Below, one piece after another: positions 2-4,776 of a stretch of DNA of 16,778 bases. The DNA lies in assembly GCF_003334255.1 (NCBI RefSeq), contig NZ_QOWU01000076.1; one strand, 5' to 3'. Position 1 is the stretch's first letter. Every line of letters starts with the position of its first letter. The stretch comes from Escherichia coli. Its GTDB lineage: Bacteria > Pseudomonadota > Gammaproteobacteria > Enterobacterales > Enterobacteriaceae. A model generated the notes under the pieces. It made no database searches, was not told where the DNA came from, and saw only the letters and a list, made by a program, of their open reading frames with translations. A program made the translations under genes and the position numbers.

Positions 2-268
2 CAGTATCACGCAGAGCTGAAGAGTCTGACCGGTGCAGAAAGAACGGCGTTCATTGACGAGAACAACGGAAAATTGTTGATGAACGGGCTTATGCAGGAT
101 ACCCGGAAGAGACTGAAGGATTTGCGCAAACAGCGCGATGCCATTTATGCCGACAGTTCTCTCAGTCTGGCGCAGCAGGCGGCGATGGTGAAATCGGTAG
201 AGCGGGATATGAAGGTTGCCGTGGATCGCTTTAACCGCGAGTACAACAAAAAAGTGGGAGTGGATTAA
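2..268 (+). CDS. 3' end of a protein-coding gene that begins upstream of the window (C-terminal ~88 codons; charged, probably helical); product not identified
   Basis: Frame 2 is open from the window edge to the TAA at 266-268; the listed 64-aa ORF (74-268) is the tail of this longer frame. No family recognised from sequence. Confidence 0.35.
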   Translation, partial: QYHAELKSLTGAERTAFIDENNGKLLMNGLMQDTRKRLKDLRKQRDAIYADSSLSLAQQAAMVKSVERDMKVAVDRFNREYNKKVGVD

Positions 269-276
269 CAGAAATG

Positions 277-298
277 GCCCCGTACGGAAGTGCGGGGC
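277..298 (+). terminator. Stem-loop just downstream of the preceding stop codon (9-bp stem with one G-U pair, GGAA loop); weak or atypical terminator
   Basis: gccccgtac-ggaa-gtgcggggc begins 9 nt after the stop at 266-268, but the 3' flank (tgattaag) is not a U-tract, so canonical intrinsic termination is uncertain. Confidence 0.25.
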
Positions 299-418
299 TG
301 ATTAAGAAATAAACACACATTAACCTGTAATAACCGGAGCTATTAACATATAGTCAGAAAGAGTATTTCATGTGAGACAGAGAGCCGATTTATGTTTAAT
401 GAAGAAAAAGTTGCGTAA

Positions 419-943
419 ATGGCAGCGTATTTGCTGAAAAAACATGGCGGATCTATGCGTTTCATTAAGCTGATGTATCTCTCTGACCGCAAAGCAATGG
501 AGTTGTATGGTTTTCCCATTAGTGGTGATCATTATTTCTCTATGAACAAAGGACCCGTTTTATCGCAGACATATTCTTTGGTTAAGGATGGAAGTGAAAA
601 CGAGTACAGTCCGTGGGAATCATGGATATCTGATGTAGCGGATCATAAGGTTGAAATGTGGCGTACATTTTCTTCTGTTGATGAGCTGGGGGAGTTATCG
701 CCCGCAGAAATAGAGTCAATGGACATAATTTTTGGTCAATATGGAGGTTGGGATGCGTTCAGGCTTTGTGATGAAACTCACAGAATTTGCGGTGAGTGGC
801 GCGATCCGCATGGTTCATCAATTCCAATCAGCCTTAAGGATATATTTATTGCTCTTGGAAAGTCGCCAGAAGCAGCAACAGTAATGGCGAATAGCATTTA
901 TGCGCAAAATAATCTTGATATATTATTAAGTGATCTGAGGTAG
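419..943 (+). CDS. Panacea-domain (DUF4065, GepA/SocA-like, COG3600 phage-associated) protein, 174 aa
   Basis: The N-terminal region has the pattern I associate with DUF4065 (IKLMYLSDRKAMELYGFPISGDHYFSMNKGPVLSQTY, i.e. K-L-x-Y-L ... GPV ... Y). An in-frame ATG at 392 is followed by 8 codons and a TAA at 416-418 directly abutting this ATG. Confidence 0.55.
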   Translation: MAAYLLKKHGGSMRFIKLMYLSDRKAMELYGFPISGDHYFSMNKGPVLSQTYSLVKDGSENEYSPWESWISDVADHKVEMWRTFSSVDELGELSPAEIESMDIIFGQYGGWDAFRLCDETHRICGEWRDPHGSSIPISLKDIFIALGKSPEAATVMANSIYAQNNLDILLSDLR

Positions 944-1031
944 TCGGGATGATGTTCAGCCCTTATTTGTATTTACCGGGGAGGGAAGATGTTTAATTCC
1001 GATTCCCCGGCTCCACAGGCCTAACCTAACT

Positions 1032-1676
1032 TTATGTAACAGTCCATGCAGGGCTGAAATCTGCCTGCTGAAATAACTCCGTTAGCCCGCTAATCTGCTT
1101 TAACCTCAGAACTTCATCCTGGTCCATCCCCAGTTCTGTTCCGATACGTTCATCAGTCCAGCCAAGACGTGAAAGATCTCTGACAATATCAGACATTGAG
1201 GTTATCTGGTGTTTCCCCCTGGCTCTGTTATGTCGGATAGTCGCGGCAATACGTGAGGTTTGTCCCTTTCGGTCTGGATTAATACAGGTTACTGGTAGCC
1301 AGCCTTTCAGGCGTTTTCCAGTAACTGTTCTTCTACCTAGTAACTGCCTATGAAAACCATCCACCACCAGGTAATGGCTTGTTTCTTCCGAAACAACAAT
1401 TGGTTGAGTAAAACCGTCTTTTTCCAGAGATTGTTTCAGTAATTTTTTTTCGCTTGGGGCCATGACATTGGGATTATAATCGTTAGCGACAATTTCATCC
1501 GCTTTTACCCACAGCACACAGTCCACTGGTTCTTGAGCAAAGGGGCTGATCTCATGGAGTACGCAGCGGAGATGGTTCAGGGCCTGTATGGTTTTCTCTT
1601 CAGATTGTTCCTGACTGAAGTACTGTCGAATCATCTTGCTCAGCACCTCCACCTCTGGTGTCACAGAATTCCCCAT
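1032..1676 (-). CDS. ibrB: ParB-like nuclease-domain protein, IbrB-type (214 aa)
   Basis: ParB/Srx-type motif (LVVDGFHRQ) and C-terminal helix-turn-helix-like region; strong RBS (aaggaggaagga) before the ATG at 1674-1676; the start overlaps the 3' end of the upstream gene by 16 nt. Confidence 0.65.
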   Translation of the reverse strand: MGNSVTPEVEVLSKMIRQYFSQEQSEEKTIQALNHLRCVLHEISPFAQEPVDCVLWVKADEIVANDYNPNVMAPSEKKLLKQSLEKDGFTQPIVVSEETSHYLVVDGFHRQLLGRRTVTGKRLKGWLPVTCINPDRKGQTSRIAATIRHNRARGKHQITSMSDIVRDLSRLGWTDERIGTELGMDQDEVLRLKQISGLTELFQQADFSPAWTVT

Positions 1677-2887
1677 TCCTTCCTCCTTTCATTCATACGC
1701 TGCAGGTAACGTTCATAGTGCCGGGGTTTGTTGGGGCTGAAGGAGAGCGTTCGGCACCAGAAATCATTCTTTATGAGAGTCTTACAAATACGTCGCCAGG
1801 AGGGAACATCCCGGCAGCCCAGATCATTTTCCTGTTCATCCGGGATATCATCCGGGAATCCCCGGTTCTGATACCAGCGCAGGTAAACTGCTATCTTGTT
1901 GCGGTAGTGTTCAGCCGTTCTTTCCGGCATTACGTCCAGCAGGAAGAACGCATAGCTGCGCCAGGTATGATGGGATGGTTTTGACATCCGTTTACGCAGG
2001 GCAAAATAGGCCCCGCTTTCATTGGCATAAAGAGCCCCACTGGCAGCACCAGATACTCGTTCACACATCCGTGCCCAAGTTTCTGGCTCCAGAACATGAT
2101 AAAGCCATAGTCCCTTACGCTGTTCCGGGCCAAAAGGCTCACAGACACGCATATTACGTAGAGGAATGCCTGCGCGGTACATCAAATCATACAGAGGATT
2201 GTAGATTGCACAGGTTTTAGCGTTATATACCCAGATATCGTTGGTTTTCCAGTCATACAGCGGATACATGGTGTAGTAAAAACCTTCAGGTGACGCCGTG
2301 GTCCAGGGTTTATCATCTGCATATCTCAGTTTTCGTTGGGAAACCAGTCCCATAAATCTGTTAAGAGATTCATCCGCGCGGACTCCAGTCAGTATTGCCA
2401 CGCTACATTGGTTACTTGCGAACCAGGAAGAAAAAGCCGGGACAAATTCTTCAAAAGTCATGGCGTAGCGGTAAAAGGGGAAATACGCCATATCAGTAAT
2501 AGCATCTTCCGGTGGCTGTCGAACCCACTCTACACCGGGCTCCCAGCATATCCACTCAGGCTGAAACTGCGAGACACCATTTACTGTCGTCAGGGGAAGT
2601 GCAACCCAGTAAAAGGTATCTGTTACATCTTGGTACATCATCCGCATCTTCTGTATATGATCAATGGTGCATTGATACTGGGCTTCCCAGTCAATGAACA
2701 ATACAGAAAAACGACGTTTCTTCCTGTAGGCCACTTCGGCTACAAGATGGAAAAGTACAGTGGAATCTTTACCGCCAGAAAAAGATAAACATACAGAAGA
2801 GAATGTTTCAAACAACCATTCAATGCGGTGAATGGCTGCTGACAAAACATCTTCTCCAGTTCTGATTTTTGTTATAGTTACCGGCAT
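1661..2887 (-). CDS. ibrA: PAPS-reductase-family PP-loop protein with extended C-terminal domain, IbrA-type (408 aa)
   Basis: PP-loop motif SFSGGKDS near the N-terminus, typical of the PAPS reductase / DndC-like ATP pyrophosphatase family; the stop at 1661-1663 overlaps the ibrB start, suggesting translational coupling. No clear Shine-Dalgarno before the ATG at 2885-2887. Confidence 0.7.
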   Translation of the reverse strand: MPVTITKIRTGEDVLSAAIHRIEWLFETFSSVCLSFSGGKDSTVLFHLVAEVAYRKKRRFSVLFIDWEAQYQCTIDHIQKMRMMYQDVTDTFYWVALPLTTVNGVSQFQPEWICWEPGVEWVRQPPEDAITDMAYFPFYRYAMTFEEFVPAFSSWFASNQCSVAILTGVRADESLNRFMGLVSQRKLRYADDKPWTTASPEGFYYTMYPLYDWKTNDIWVYNAKTCAIYNPLYDLMYRAGIPLRNMRVCEPFGPEQRKGLWLYHVLEPETWARMCERVSGAASGALYANESGAYFALRKRMSKPSHHTWRSYAFFLLDVMPERTAEHYRNKIAVYLRWYQNRGFPDDIPDEQENDLGCRDVPSWRRICKTLIKNDFWCRTLSFSPNKPRHYERYLQRMNERRKEWGIL

Positions 2888-3083: not shown

Positions 3084-3713
3084 TCAGAATTCAAATTGTC
3101 TTGCCCGCAGGCTTTTCAGCATTGGTCTGGCCCGCTGAACTACGAAACTCGACTGGTCAAGCCGTGCCGCCTCTCTCAGTAGCACATCTCTGTTCTTCGT
3201 CACCATGTAGATAGTCTCAAACGCAATGTCATACAGCTTGTTCGTGTATGAGGAGTTCAGCTCTTTCATTATGGGGTACAGCTGCTTGCTAAGGTCCTGG
3301 GCTTTTTCCATCCAGAGCTGCATGTAGCAAAGGAGGATGATTTCCTCGGCTGTGAATTGCGGCTGTGGTTCTGCTTGTACTGGCTGAATGTTGCGAAGTT
3401 TCTTTTCGCACTCGATGAAGTAGCGGCGGATCTGGCGACCTTTTTCGTTACGTTCAACCATCGCAAGCTCTTTGGCTGTGTCGAGGGTGAGGTGGTAATC
3501 CTTGCGGCGGCGGCCTGGAGTTTTCGCCAAATTTGGCGAAAATAGAATGTAGTCTAAATTTTCTACGAATCCATACTCGTTTAGCCTGGCCCGTATCCAG
3601 TTAGAAAAATCTTTACCTACCTCTAAAAATCCATGCAAATCACGCGCGTTCACCAGAAGCGTAGGTTCATTTGAGATTGTACCTTCAAACACAGGGATGA
3701 GTTGAGTGGTCAT
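3084..3713 (-). CDS. Phage antirepressor, AntA/AntB N-terminal domain protein (about 209 aa from ATG at 3711-3713)
   Basis: N-terminal motif LIPVF...LVNARDLHGFLEVGKDFSNWIRARLNEYGFVENLDY matches the AntA-family pattern as I recall it; RBS aaggagg 5-11 nt upstream of the ATG. The listed 263-aa ORF has a 54-codon upstream extension with no RBS that overlaps the conserved leader, so the shorter start is preferred. Confidence 0.6.
   Translation of the reverse strand: MTTQLIPVFEGTISNEPTLLVNARDLHGFLEVGKDFSNWIRARLNEYGFVENLDYILFSPNLAKTPGRRRKDYHLTLDTAKELAMVERNEKGRQIRRYFIECEKKLRNIQPVQAEPQPQFTAEEIILLCYMQLWMEKAQDLSKQLYPIMKELNSSYTNKLYDIAFETIYMVTKNRDVLLREAARLDQSSFVVQRARPMLKSLRARQFEF
3454..3508. repeat. 55-bp direct repeat, copy 1 (54/55 identical to 3982-4036), inside the full-length antirepressor gene
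   Basis: Direct comparison: tcaaccatcgcaagctctttggctgtgtcgagggtgaggtggta[a/t]tccttgcgg; encodes HLTLDTAKELAMV in both paralogs, while flanking coding sequence is clearly diverged. Confidence 0.8.
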
Positions 3714-3801
3714 GATGACCTCCTTTGGCTTTTTTCGAGAAATGCCACCACAAGATGTGGTGCCGGGAGGCTCGAAACGGCCCAAAAGATACCGCGGACT
3801 T

Positions 3802-3824
3802 ATTCCCCTTGCGGGTGTTGTATT
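3802..3824 (-). promoter_or_regulatory. Conserved 23-nt leader motif, copy 1 (attccccttgcgggtgttgtatt), upstream of the full-length antirepressor gene
   Basis: Identical 23-mer at 4336-4358 upstream of the truncated paralog; both leaders also share caggcataaaaaa (3883-3895 and 4405-4417). Function not determined. Confidence 0.3.
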
Positions 3825-3962
3825 CGTCGCCCTCCCGACATTGATCGGGGATGTGACCGCACACTGTGCTATCACTGAATAACAGGCATAAAAAATCCAA
3901 CACTGACGGGGTTGGTTTAATCCGCTTTTGGGAGGTTTTCGAGGCCTCGGCGCGGAGTATAG

Positions 3963-4247: not shown

Positions 4248-4335
4248 GATGACCTCCTTATTTGTTTAGTTTATAACCGCCAGTTAGTAGCTGGCGGTCG
4301 GGTGTCAACTGAGCCAAATAAGAAGCTCTGGGCAT

Positions 4336-4358
4336 ATTCCCCTTGCGGGTGTTGTATT
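4336..4358 (-). promoter_or_regulatory. Conserved 23-nt leader motif, copy 2
   Basis: Exact copy of 3802-3824; lies between the candidate promoter (4466-4495) and the RBS of the truncated antirepressor gene. Confidence 0.3.
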
Positions 4359-4465
4359 ACGCCTCTCCACCCGACCTTTGTACGGATGTAACTATGCCAA
4401 ATTGCAGGCATAAAAAAGCCGCAAAGCTATCGGGTGCGGAGACCGCTTATTTGTTCAGTGCGATC

Positions 4466-4662: not shown

Positions 4663-4776
4663 CTAATTGATTTTAAACGATACGTAACCAACTTTAAAAT
4701 CTTTGCACGCCAGTTCGCAGGTTTTACAGCCAGTACAGCGGCTGGAATCGATAAAAAATCCATATTGTGTGGTCAT
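4663..4776 (-). pseudogene. ynfG: 5' fragment of ynfG (DmsB-like 4Fe-4S subunit gene): 28 native codons, then 9 foreign codons and a stop
   Basis: Translation from the ATG at 4774-4776 gives MTTQYGFFIDSSRCTGCKTCELACKDFK (matches the ferredoxin-type DmsB/YnfG N-terminus as I recall it), then VGYVSFKIN-stop; RBS aaggag sits 7 nt upstream of the ATG and 10 nt after the ynfF stop. Confidence 0.7.

What the first reader, a model, noticed from the sequence alone, without database searches (positions are those of the whole stretch)
392..943. Apparently orphan Panacea-domain (DUF4065) gene with an in-frame stop abutting its start codon
Panacea domains are best known as antitoxin modules paired with very diverse toxins, yet no plausible toxin partner lies next to this gene: the next gene is convergent and the upstream frame is separated by about 150 bp and a hairpin. 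In addition, an ATG at 392 opens the same frame, giving MFNEEKVA, then TAA (416-418), then the ATG at 419. This suggests an ancestral longer N-terminus interrupted by a point mutation with reinitiation, or a leader peptide, or a decaying gene.
Basis: partly seen in the sequence, partly recalled or inferred. Interest (0 to 1): 0.6.

Follow-up and report, generated by a model that had tools for sequence, protein, structure and literature searches.

The report
Decayed PanA antitoxin, toxin partner deleted
This is the damaged leftover of a known two-gene toxin-antitoxin cassette in an E. coli prophage: the toxin gene has been deleted and the remaining antitoxin gene carries a premature stop and a small deletion, so it is ordinary gene decay.

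Summary
ATG(392) opens the frame MFNEEKVA, TAA sits at 416-418 and ATG at 419. The 174-codon ORF 419-943 has a Panacea domain (PF13274, E=3e-19).

Homologues are 184-186 aa and begin MF[NCS]EEKVAQMAAYLL. The TAA replaces a Gln codon conserved in at least 90% of them.

Orthologous loci in other E. coli assemblies lie in the same Stx-phage-like prophage, just after the same giant LPD38 gene. They carry CAA at that codon and an intact 186-aa panA. Five bases downstream they carry an intact 133-aa gene.

That partner has a MazF/Kid-like predicted fold. It belongs to PanT group T6 of Kurata et al. 2022, which includes the validated Pseudomonas moraviensis PanAT pair.

The window copy has three lesions:
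- C->T at 416 (Gln9 to stop).
- Loss of one of two tandem AAGCTGATG copies, which removes conserved K-L-M.
- Deletion of panT after codon 6; the remnant ATGATGTTCAGCCCTTAT is at 949-966.

Other E. coli lineages show different deletions or IS insertions at the same locus. This is a decaying remnant of a known type II TA module. Residual expression by reinitiation at TAA-ATG is possible but untested. Interest is low.

The parts
2..268 (+). 3' end of the giant (about 2,790-aa) LPD38/LPD5/MuF-C 'polyvalent' phage gene. It is context, not a toxin partner.
   Evidence: RefSeq annotation of the identical locus. Pfam families on the orthologous genes. At least 94.5% DNA identity to Stx-converting phages such as VT2-Sakai.
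276..299 (+). Strong hairpin just after the LPD38 stop codon, with no T-run. In L030 this hairpin plus the gene's 3' end is repeated on both sides of the panAT cassette.
   Evidence: RNA fold -20.5 kcal/mol, z=-5.25. Direct repeats of about 150 bp, 1,347 bp apart, in L030.
392..418 (+). The ancestral first 9 codons of panA (MFNEEKVA + stop), now cut off from the rest of the gene. ATG 392 is the family's true start codon.
   Evidence: Homologues begin MF[NCS]EEKVAQMAAYLL. Intact orthologues L026-L033 are identical here apart from base 416.
416..418 (+). TAA nonsense codon derived from CAA (Gln9) by a C->T transition at 416.
   Evidence: CAA in O104:H4 (L007), STEC (L008), the P2-like prophage (L006) and L026/L030-L033. 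Q9 is conserved in at least 90% of 63 homologues.
419..943 (+). Remaining open frame of panA (174 codons, Panacea domain). RefSeq annotates it as an intact 'Panacea domain-containing protein'. If it is translated at all, this is probably by reinitiation at the ATG that abuts the TAA.
   Evidence: ORF list. Pfam PF13274 E=3.1e-19. PHROG 1281 alignment starts at profile position 15. RefSeq annotation.
467..475 (+). Site of a 9-bp in-frame deletion. Only one copy of AAGCTGATG remains where orthologues have two in tandem, so KLMKLM becomes KLM. This removes residues that are invariant in the family (K-L of helix alpha2).
   Evidence: DNA alignments. K26, L27, K29 and L30 are invariant in 63 homologues. 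In the AF2 model of the reconstructed protein helix alpha2 spans residues 24-42.
949..966 (+). Remnant of the deleted toxin gene panT: its first 6 codons, ATG ATG TTC AGC CCT TAT (MMFSPY). It sits 5 bases after the panA stop, exactly as in the intact loci.
   Evidence: 17 of 18 bases are identical to the start of the intact 133-aa gene in L026/L030 (MMFTPYRRGT...). The protein alignment agrees.
972..1035 (+). Sequence that probably corresponds to the hairpin-containing spacer lying just after the panT stop in intact loci. The hairpin arms here are 976-982 and 1004-1010. This places the deletion at roughly panT codon 7 to about 20 bases past its stop.
   Evidence: Local alignment to L026, score 42 against shuffles of 20.7 +/- 3.4 with maximum 35. 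Fold.
1032..1676 (-). IbrB-like (ParB-like) gene, convergent with panA. It is context. It is followed by the IbrA/PAPS-reductase-like gene at 1661-2887.

Best explanation
The gene is the decaying antitoxin half of a type II PanA-PanT toxin-antitoxin cassette. The cassette is carried as accessory cargo at the right end of a 933W/VT2-Sakai-like (Stx-phage-type) lambdoid prophage inserted in ynfG of E. coli.

In the intact form a 186-aa stand-alone Panacea antitoxin (PanA) is followed 5 bases later by a 133-aa MazF-fold toxin (PanT group T6). By analogy with the validated P. moraviensis pair, PanA binds and neutralises the toxin directly, and the free toxin blocks translation.

In the window lineage about 400 bp of panT were deleted, leaving 6 codons. 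With no toxin to neutralise, panA came under relaxed selection. It acquired a CAA->TAA nonsense mutation at codon 9 and a slippage deletion of one of two tandem AAGCTGATG repeats.

Shown: the three lesions, the intact orthologues, the partner's predicted fold and its family membership.

Inferred: the order of events (toxin lost first, because losing the antitoxin first would be lethal), the relaxed selection, and the idea that any protein now made starts at ATG 419 by termination-reinitiation at TAA-ATG. Such a protein would lack half of helix alpha1 and nearly a turn of helix alpha2.
For: - **Ancestral N-terminus.** Homologues are 184-186 aa and cover 99-100% of the reconstructed 183-aa query. 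All full-length ones begin MF.EEKVAQMAAYLL.
- **Intact orthologues.** L026-L029 and L030-L033 are in the same prophage. L026-L028, L030, L031 and L033 have the LPD38 gene upstream, L030/L032 have IbrB/IbrA downstream, and L026/L028/L029 abut a molybdopterin-reductase (ynfF-like) gene. Their panA is intact with CAA and KLMKLM, and an intact 133-aa gene follows 5 bases later.
- **Conserved pairing.** The partner also follows PanA homologues in metagenomic contigs carrying a PanA identical to that of Mixta mediterraneensis, in Photorhabdus, in Aeromonas, and in two other E. coli prophages, with gaps of -4 to +29 bases.
- **Size of the partner family.** 2,648 representatives at E<=1e-3, with no Pfam, NCBIfam or PADLOC model.
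- **Link to the literature.** The Photorhabdus namnaonensis toxin WP_065389115.1 is listed as PanT group T6 in Dataset S1 of PMC8832971. It lies in the same 90%-identity cluster as the L012 partner. T6 includes P. moraviensis PanT, which is toxic, is neutralised by PanA, forms a complex with it and inhibits translation. That PanA needed the N-terminal MIFSEQKVAQ restored.
- **Independent decay of the same locus.** O157/Stx-phage type: internal deletions in both panA and panT, with a panT remnant at tblastn E=2.7e-6. O104:H4 type: truncated after about codon 40. There is an IS1 insertion upstream (L017) and an IS3 truncation (L016). 182 of 5,426 complete genomes hold some piece, and only 18 hold the near-full ORF.
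- **Allele differences.** All four differences between the two window-type alleles (839, 864, 899, 929) are nonsynonymous.
Against: - The 174-codon frame is still open, and the Pfam match is still strong.
- The allele is widespread: the exact protein is seen on 119 contigs, and a shorter call of the same sequence on 212. It is also carried by a phage that was isolated and sequenced (PhiR5_2).
- The copies are 99.5-100% identical, so an open frame says little either way. Divergence from the intact orthologue L030 is 7 nonsynonymous to 7 synonymous codons. By my rough estimate that is a dN/dS of about 0.3, which does not by itself show neutrality.
- Loss of function of the truncated protein was not tested.
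Confidence: 0.88

Rival explanations
1. Functional orphan antitoxin. The truncated PanA is still made, by reinitiation at the ATG abutting the TAA. The phage keeps it to neutralise related T6 PanT toxins encoded elsewhere. It would then act as an anti-addiction or counter-defence factor rather than as half of its own TA pair.
For: - The frame stays open for 174 codons with a strong Panacea match.
- TAA-ATG is a classic arrangement for termination-reinitiation (established knowledge, not tested here).
- The allele is common and is carried by a sequenced, isolated phage.
- Other T6-type PanAT pairs exist in E. coli prophages and could be targets.
- Kurata et al. report that PanA can be evolved to neutralise non-cognate toxins (abstract).
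Against: - It has lost M1-Q9, of which four positions are conserved in at least 90% of homologues, and an invariant K-L pair in helix alpha2.
- Natural PanAs are specific for their cognate toxin according to PMC8832971 (section heading seen).
- Sister lineages have destroyed the gene further by internal deletion, truncation and IS elements.
- The allele differences are all nonsynonymous.
- The copies are too alike for the open frame to indicate selection.
Confidence: 0.08
2. Leader peptide or regulatory upstream ORF. The 8-codon ORF at 392-418 is a designed leader whose translation controls the Panacea gene through translational coupling.
For: The stop and start codons abut. A weak local stem spans 410-426.
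Against: In every relative, including orthologues about 97% identical in DNA, the same codons are the N-terminus of the protein, with CAA in place of TAA. The fold of 370-440 is no better than shuffles (z=-1.07).
Confidence: 0.02
3. Assembly or sequencing artefact at base 416.
For: None beyond the fact that it is a single-base difference.
Against: The same T is present in five independent full-length chromosome copies. The match of phage PhiR5_2 is also consistent with it. It travels together with the 9-bp deletion and the panT deletion.
Confidence: 0.01

Closest known systems
PanA-PanT type II toxin-antitoxin systems, toxin group T6 (Kurata et al. 2022, PNAS, PMC8832971); validated example Pseudomonas moraviensis PanA WP_083354365.1 / PanT WP_083201923.1
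   Same: - Stand-alone Panacea antitoxin of about 185 aa with no extra N-terminal domain.
- N-terminus of the MIFSEQKVAQ / MFNEEKVAQ type.
- Antitoxin-first gene order, with overlap or a gap of a few bases.
- A toxin of about 133 aa with no Pfam domain and a MazF/PemK-like fold.

The intact orthologues of the window gene fit all of these. Their partner family contains a T6 accession from the paper's Dataset S1.
   Different: The window copy is not a working pair. The toxin is reduced to 6 codons, and the antitoxin has a nonsense codon at position 9 and a 3-residue deletion. Its host element, an Stx-phage-like prophage, is not mentioned in the parts of that paper I read.
MazF/Kid(PemK)/CcdB toxin fold
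   Different: Sequence identity is only 6-13%. There is no Pfam PemK hit. The antitoxin is a Panacea protein, not MazE/Kis/CcdA. RNase activity is inferred, not shown. None of this toxin remains in the window beyond 18 bases.
SocA (Caulobacter type VI antitoxin, the founding Panacea-domain protein)
   Same: It shares the Pfam domain PF13274. RefSeq names some copies 'SocA family protein'.
   Different: SocA acts as a ClpXP adaptor for the replication inhibitor SocB. Nothing here suggests that mechanism, and the relatives' partner has a MazF-like fold rather than resembling SocB. Not tested.
Degraded or orphan antitoxin genes left behind after toxin loss (general pattern of TA decay in prophages)
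   Same: The toxin is lost, and the antitoxin then accumulates disabling mutations. Several independent decay states occur at one locus.
   Different: Nothing essential differs. This is an example of that pattern.

Membership tests
Panacea / DUF4065 domain proteins (Pfam PF13274) | Significant match to the PF13274 HMM | tested here: met
   E=3.1e-19, residues 16-127, model positions 2-112 of 113.
PanA of T6-type PanAT modules | Uninterrupted protein of about 185 aa beginning MF.E.KVAQMAAYLL | tested here: not met
   TAA replaces Gln9, and the ORF restarts at Met10. The ancestral codons are still present at 392-415.
PanA of T6-type PanAT modules | Conserved core motif K-L-M-K-L-L/M-Y-L in helix alpha2 | tested here: not met
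   One KLM unit is deleted (a 9-bp slippage). K26, L27, K29 and L30 are invariant in 63 homologues.
PanA of T6-type PanAT modules | Adjacent downstream T6 toxin gene (about 133 aa) in the same orientation, overlapping or a few bases away | tested here: not met
   Only 6 codons remain (949-966). tblastn with five PanT sequences finds nothing significant elsewhere in the window. Intact orthologues do have the gene.
PanA of T6-type PanAT modules | Orthology or homology to PanAs that are paired with T6 toxins | tested here: met
   About 97% DNA identity to the panA of L026/L030, which is followed by the toxin. The Photorhabdus homologue's partner clusters with the T6 accession WP_065389115.1.
PanA of T6-type PanAT modules | Neutralises and binds the cognate toxin | not testable with these tools
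   This needs co-expression and pull-down assays, which have been done only for the P. moraviensis pair (PMC8832971).
PanT group T6 / MazF-fold toxins (applies to the partner in relatives) | MazF/Kid-like SH3-barrel fold | tested here: met
PanT group T6 / MazF-fold toxins (applies to the partner in relatives) | Toxicity or translation inhibition by the E. coli prophage protein itself | not testable with these tools
   Inferred from the P. moraviensis T6 member only.
Leader peptide / upstream ORF | Conserved as a separate short ORF in relatives | tested here: not met
   All relatives read through with Gln at this codon.
SocA-type (type VI) antitoxin | SocB-like partner and ClpXP-adaptor function | not tested
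   The Pfam domain is shared, and no SocB-like gene is nearby. The relatives' partner has a MazF-like fold.

The most novel reading that the evidence does not exclude
The N-terminally truncated, toxin-less PanA is still translated by termination-reinitiation at TAA-ATG. The Stx-like phage keeps it as a free antitoxin that disarms T6 PanAT abortive-infection or addiction modules of other prophages (for example P2-like ones) in the same host. It would then be a phage counter-defence factor derived from a broken TA pair.
Probability: 0.08. Interest if true: 0.5.

Novelty: new member of a known kind. Interest (0 to 1): 0.15.

Why it matters
The main value is for annotation and housekeeping.
- RefSeq labels this ORF as an intact 'Panacea domain-containing protein'. 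It is better described as a pseudogene remnant of a PanAT module.
- The many short 'hypothetical protein' calls at the same place in Stx phages are remnants of the same pair. These include O157 and O104:H4 prophages and PHROGs 3658, 28947 and 1925.
- It shows how an 'orphan' Panacea gene can arise by loss of the toxin, which is worth remembering when counting stand-alone PanAs.

A modest side point: the intact T6 PanAT cassette sits in prophage accessory regions. These include the gpA-portal interval of P2-like phages, which I recall as a defence hotspot. PADLOC has no model for it. It is therefore a reasonable untested candidate for a prophage-borne defence or addiction module.

Tried and rejected
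Rejected. Positions 2-268 are the end of an 8.4-kb LPD38/LPD5/MuF-C phage gene, and in relatives the partner is downstream.
- **Family searches for the partner.** Pfam, NCBIfam and PADLOC gave nothing. Profile searches of PDB sequences gave nothing for either the partner or PanA. Only fold comparison worked.
- **Word-indexed homology search for the partner.** It found only 4 proteins. The exhaustive HMM search was needed to find the rest.
- **Promoter scan of 200-1100.** It found no sigma-70-like site, so I make no claim about the promoter.
- **Searching complete E. coli genomes with the P2-type panAT DNA.** No record covered the full query. The intact orthologues turned up only through the 90% cluster listing.
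- **dN/dS.** Too few differences to decide.
- **P0004, P0010 and P0293.** These look N-terminally truncated but are start-codon miscalls. The DNA of L006 and L030-L033 encodes the full N-terminus. I did not check the DNA for P0010.
- **First supplement look-up.** It failed for lack of capacity and was repeated successfully.

Full report
**1. Where the window comes from**

The window is E. coli chromosome. Bases 1-1700 are 100% identical to strain G1/2 (NZ_CP060083) and at least 99.7% identical to 17 other complete genomes.

The finding lies at the right end of a prophage inserted in ynfG, next to ynfF and ynfE. The local gene order is as follows:
- a giant 8.4-kb LPD38 gene, ending at 268;
- the Panacea gene, 419-943, + strand;
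- an IbrB-like gene, 1032-1676, - strand;
- an IbrA/PAPS-reductase-like gene, 1661-2887, - strand;
- antirepressor genes.

The giant gene is at least 94.5% identical to Stx-converting phages such as VT2-Sakai and 100% identical to phage PhiR5_2. The element is therefore a 933W/VT2-Sakai-type lambdoid prophage.

**2. The observation**

The sequence reads ATG(392) TTT AAT GAA GAA AAA GTT GCG TAA(416-418) ATG(419). The 174-aa ORF matches Pfam SocA_Panacea PF13274 at E=3.1e-19.

The upstream gene stops at 268. A strong hairpin follows at 276-299 (-20.5 kcal/mol, z=-5.25). The next gene is convergent.

**3. The upstream codons are the real N-terminus**

I searched with the ORF extended by the 8 upstream codons and a Gln at the stop. 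This returned 220 proteins at E<=1e-5. Nearly all are 184-186 aa and cover 99-100% of the query.

In alignments of 29 and 63 sequences, all full-length homologues begin MF[NCS]E.KVAQMAAYLL. M1, F2, A8, Q9, M10, A11 and A12 are each conserved in at least 90% of sequences.

The P0004 and P0293 entries look truncated in the list, but they are start-codon miscalls. Their DNA encodes the full N-terminus. I did not check the DNA for P0010, which also starts at MAAYLL.

Kurata et al. met the same annotation problem. They had to add MIFSEQKVAQ to the P. moraviensis PanA (PMC8832971).

**4. The TAA is a derived point mutation**

The same prophage locus has GCG CAA ATG in O104:H4 (L007), in an STEC strain (L008) and in eight draft E. 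coli assemblies (L026-L033). The window has GCG TAA ATG.

The T is present in the five independent full-length chromosome copies I read. It is therefore real and not an assembly error. The match of phage PhiR5_2 is consistent with the same allele.

**5. A second lesion inside the ORF**

Orthologues have AAGCTGATG twice in tandem (K-L-M-K-L-M). The window has one copy, at 467-475. This is a typical slippage deletion.

K26, L27, K29 and L30 are invariant in 63 homologues. I modelled the reconstructed 186-aa protein with AF2 (pLDDT 93). In the model helix alpha1 spans residues 4-17 and helix alpha2 spans 24-42. Starting at Met10 therefore removes almost half of alpha1. The deletion removes nearly one turn of alpha2.

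**6. The missing partner**

Intact homologues are followed in the same orientation by a gene of about 133 aa with no Pfam domain. The gap ranges from a 4-base overlap to 29 bases. I saw this in:
- metagenomic contigs carrying a PanA identical to that of Mixta mediterraneensis (L003-L005);
- a P2-like E. coli prophage, between gpA and the portal gene (L006);
- Photorhabdus (L012);
- an Aeromonas P2-like prophage (L014);
- an E. coli prophage near zur (L022, hhalign probability 100).

The partner family is large, with 2,648 representatives at E<=1e-3. It has no Pfam, NCBIfam or PADLOC model.

**7. Link to the literature**

Dataset S1 of Kurata et al. 2022 lists PanT group 'T6'. The group is annotated as EndoA/PemK/MazF-like by HHpred. 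Its gene order is antitoxin first, mostly with overlaps of -1 to -4. It includes Photorhabdus, Pluralibacter, Pantoea, Proteus and the validated P. moraviensis pair.

The T6 toxin accession WP_065389115.1 (P. namnaonensis) is a member of the same 90%-identity cluster as the partner in L012. The partner family is therefore T6.

For the P. moraviensis pair, the paper reports four things: the toxin is toxic, PanA neutralises it, the two form a complex, and the toxin specifically inhibits protein synthesis.

**8. Orthologous intact loci**

The 90% cluster of the window protein contains a 186-aa member, P0297. Its contigs L026-L029, and those of P0293 (L030-L033), are the same prophage:
- the LPD38 gene lies upstream in L026-L028, L030, L031 and L033;
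- IbrB and IbrA lie downstream in L030 and L032, exactly as in the window;
- a molybdopterin-reductase (ynfF-like) gene abuts the element in L026, L028 and L029.

These loci have an intact panA and, 5 bases later, an intact 133-aa panT beginning MMFTPYRRGTILAPSG.

In the window the panA stop is followed after 5 bases by ATG ATG TTC AGC CCT TAT (949-966). That matches 17 of 18 bases of the panT start. The similarity then ends.

Window 972-1035 aligns with the hairpin-containing spacer that follows panT in L026. The alignment score is 42, against shuffles of 20.7 +/- 3.4 with a maximum of 35. About 400 bp, essentially all of panT, have therefore been deleted. tblastn with five PanT proteins finds no other remnant in the window.

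**9. The same locus decays differently elsewhere**

- **O157 and other STEC prophages, and VT2-Sakai-like phages.** panA keeps codons 1-28 fused to its last ~30 codons. panT keeps residues 1-13 fused to residues 84-121 (tblastn E=2.7e-6).
- **O104:H4-type prophages.** panA is cut after about codon 40 and joined to the post-panT spacer.
- **JNEC-KY204.** An IS1 sits just upstream of the ORF.
- **S1-CAM-02-A.** An IS3 has removed the 5' half.

Of 5,426 complete genomes, 182 hold some piece of the locus and only 18 hold the near-full ORF. By their identity and coverage, all 18 are the window type.

PHROGs 3658 and 28947 (panA) and 1925 (panT) appear to be families built from these remnants.

**10. 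Interpretation**

The ancestral state was a PanA-PanT(T6) cassette. In the window lineage the toxin was deleted, and the antitoxin then acquired two disabling lesions.

The toxin-first order is an inference from TA biology: inactivating the antitoxin while the toxin is intact should be lethal. I could not order the events from the data, because all window-type copies share all three lesions.

The evidence on selection is weak. The window differs from L030 at 7 nonsynonymous and 7 synonymous codons, plus the nonsense codon. The two window-type alleles differ at four sites in the ORF, all nonsynonymous. The numbers are too small to decide.

The ATG abutting the TAA could support termination-reinitiation, so some truncated protein may be made. 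This is untested. No sigma-70-like promoter was found in 200-1100.

**11. Rivals**

- **Leader peptide.** Excluded by the comparative data.
- **Sequencing artefact.** Excluded by the independent assemblies.
- **Retained orphan antitoxin (anti-addiction or counter-defence).** Not excluded, but nothing supports it apart from the still-open frame and the allele's frequency. I give it under 10%.

**12. Novelty and interest**

This is an ordinary decayed member of a published TA family, PanAT group T6. Kurata et al. note that only about half of DUF4065 proteins sit in TA-like loci. This case shows one route to the 'orphan' state.

Interest is low. The practical outcomes are an annotation correction and the note that intact T6 PanAT cassettes ride in prophage accessory regions and have no PADLOC model.

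Noticed in passing
L030:2198-2344 and L030:3545-3692 (the equivalent single copy in the window is about 120-299): In the intact relative L030, the whole panAT cassette lies between two direct repeats of about 150 bp (88-94% identical, 1,347 bp apart). Each repeat is made of the 3' end of the LPD38 gene plus its hairpin. This looks like the footprint of cassette insertion or exchange. It would also allow the cassette to be lost by recombination between the repeats.
   Followed up: partly
window 3754-3839 (-) and 4288-4376 (-): Two full-length matches to Rfam sRNA-Xcc1 (RF02221; 73.4 and 69.1 bits against a gathering score of 53). Each lies just upstream of an antA/antB antirepressor gene or gene fragment. 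The first falls inside the GTG-extended ORF 3084-3875, so that ORF's 5' extension is probably not coding.
   Followed up: no
window 1032-2887 (-): An IbrB-like (ParB-like nuclease domain) gene and an IbrA-like (PAPS reductase + DUF3440) gene overlap by 16 bases. They are convergent with panA. The megablast query that included IbrB and the start of IbrA matched 1,931 of 5,426 complete E. coli genomes, mostly over that part. The pair's biochemical role in the phage is not clear to me.
   Followed up: no
L006:7974-8944 and L014:3001-3965: Intact T6-type PanAT pairs lie between the replication gene gpA and the portal gene or other late genes of P2-like prophages, in E. coli and in Aeromonas. From memory this is the P2 old/tin defence hotspot. 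PADLOC has no model for either protein, so the pair is an unlisted candidate defence or addiction cassette.
   Followed up: partly
L001:11904-20268 (its end is window 2-268): In strain G1/2, RefSeq marks the 8.4-kb LPD38 giant gene just upstream as a frameshifted pseudogene. It is intact in other strains. The prophage also carries an IS1, several partial genes and a Hok/Gef gene. The whole element may therefore be decaying in this strain.
   Followed up: no
window about 4693-4776 and 15058-16624: The prophage interrupts ynfG; RefSeq annotates only a truncated 4Fe-4S protein fragment next to ynfF. A second prophage begins at the other end of the window, beyond rspB. Its integrase is at 15058-16353 and its excisionase at 16373-16624, and dicB, ydfD and dicA lie further on in L001, so it is Qin-like.
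   Followed up: no
L009-L011 (Yersinia enterocolitica prophages; phages YeP1-3): The Yersinia PanA homologue (189 aa, about 50% identical) has no called gene within about 440 bases downstream. Its neighbours differ between loci. It may be another toxin-less copy or may pair with a different partner. I did not examine it.
   Followed up: no
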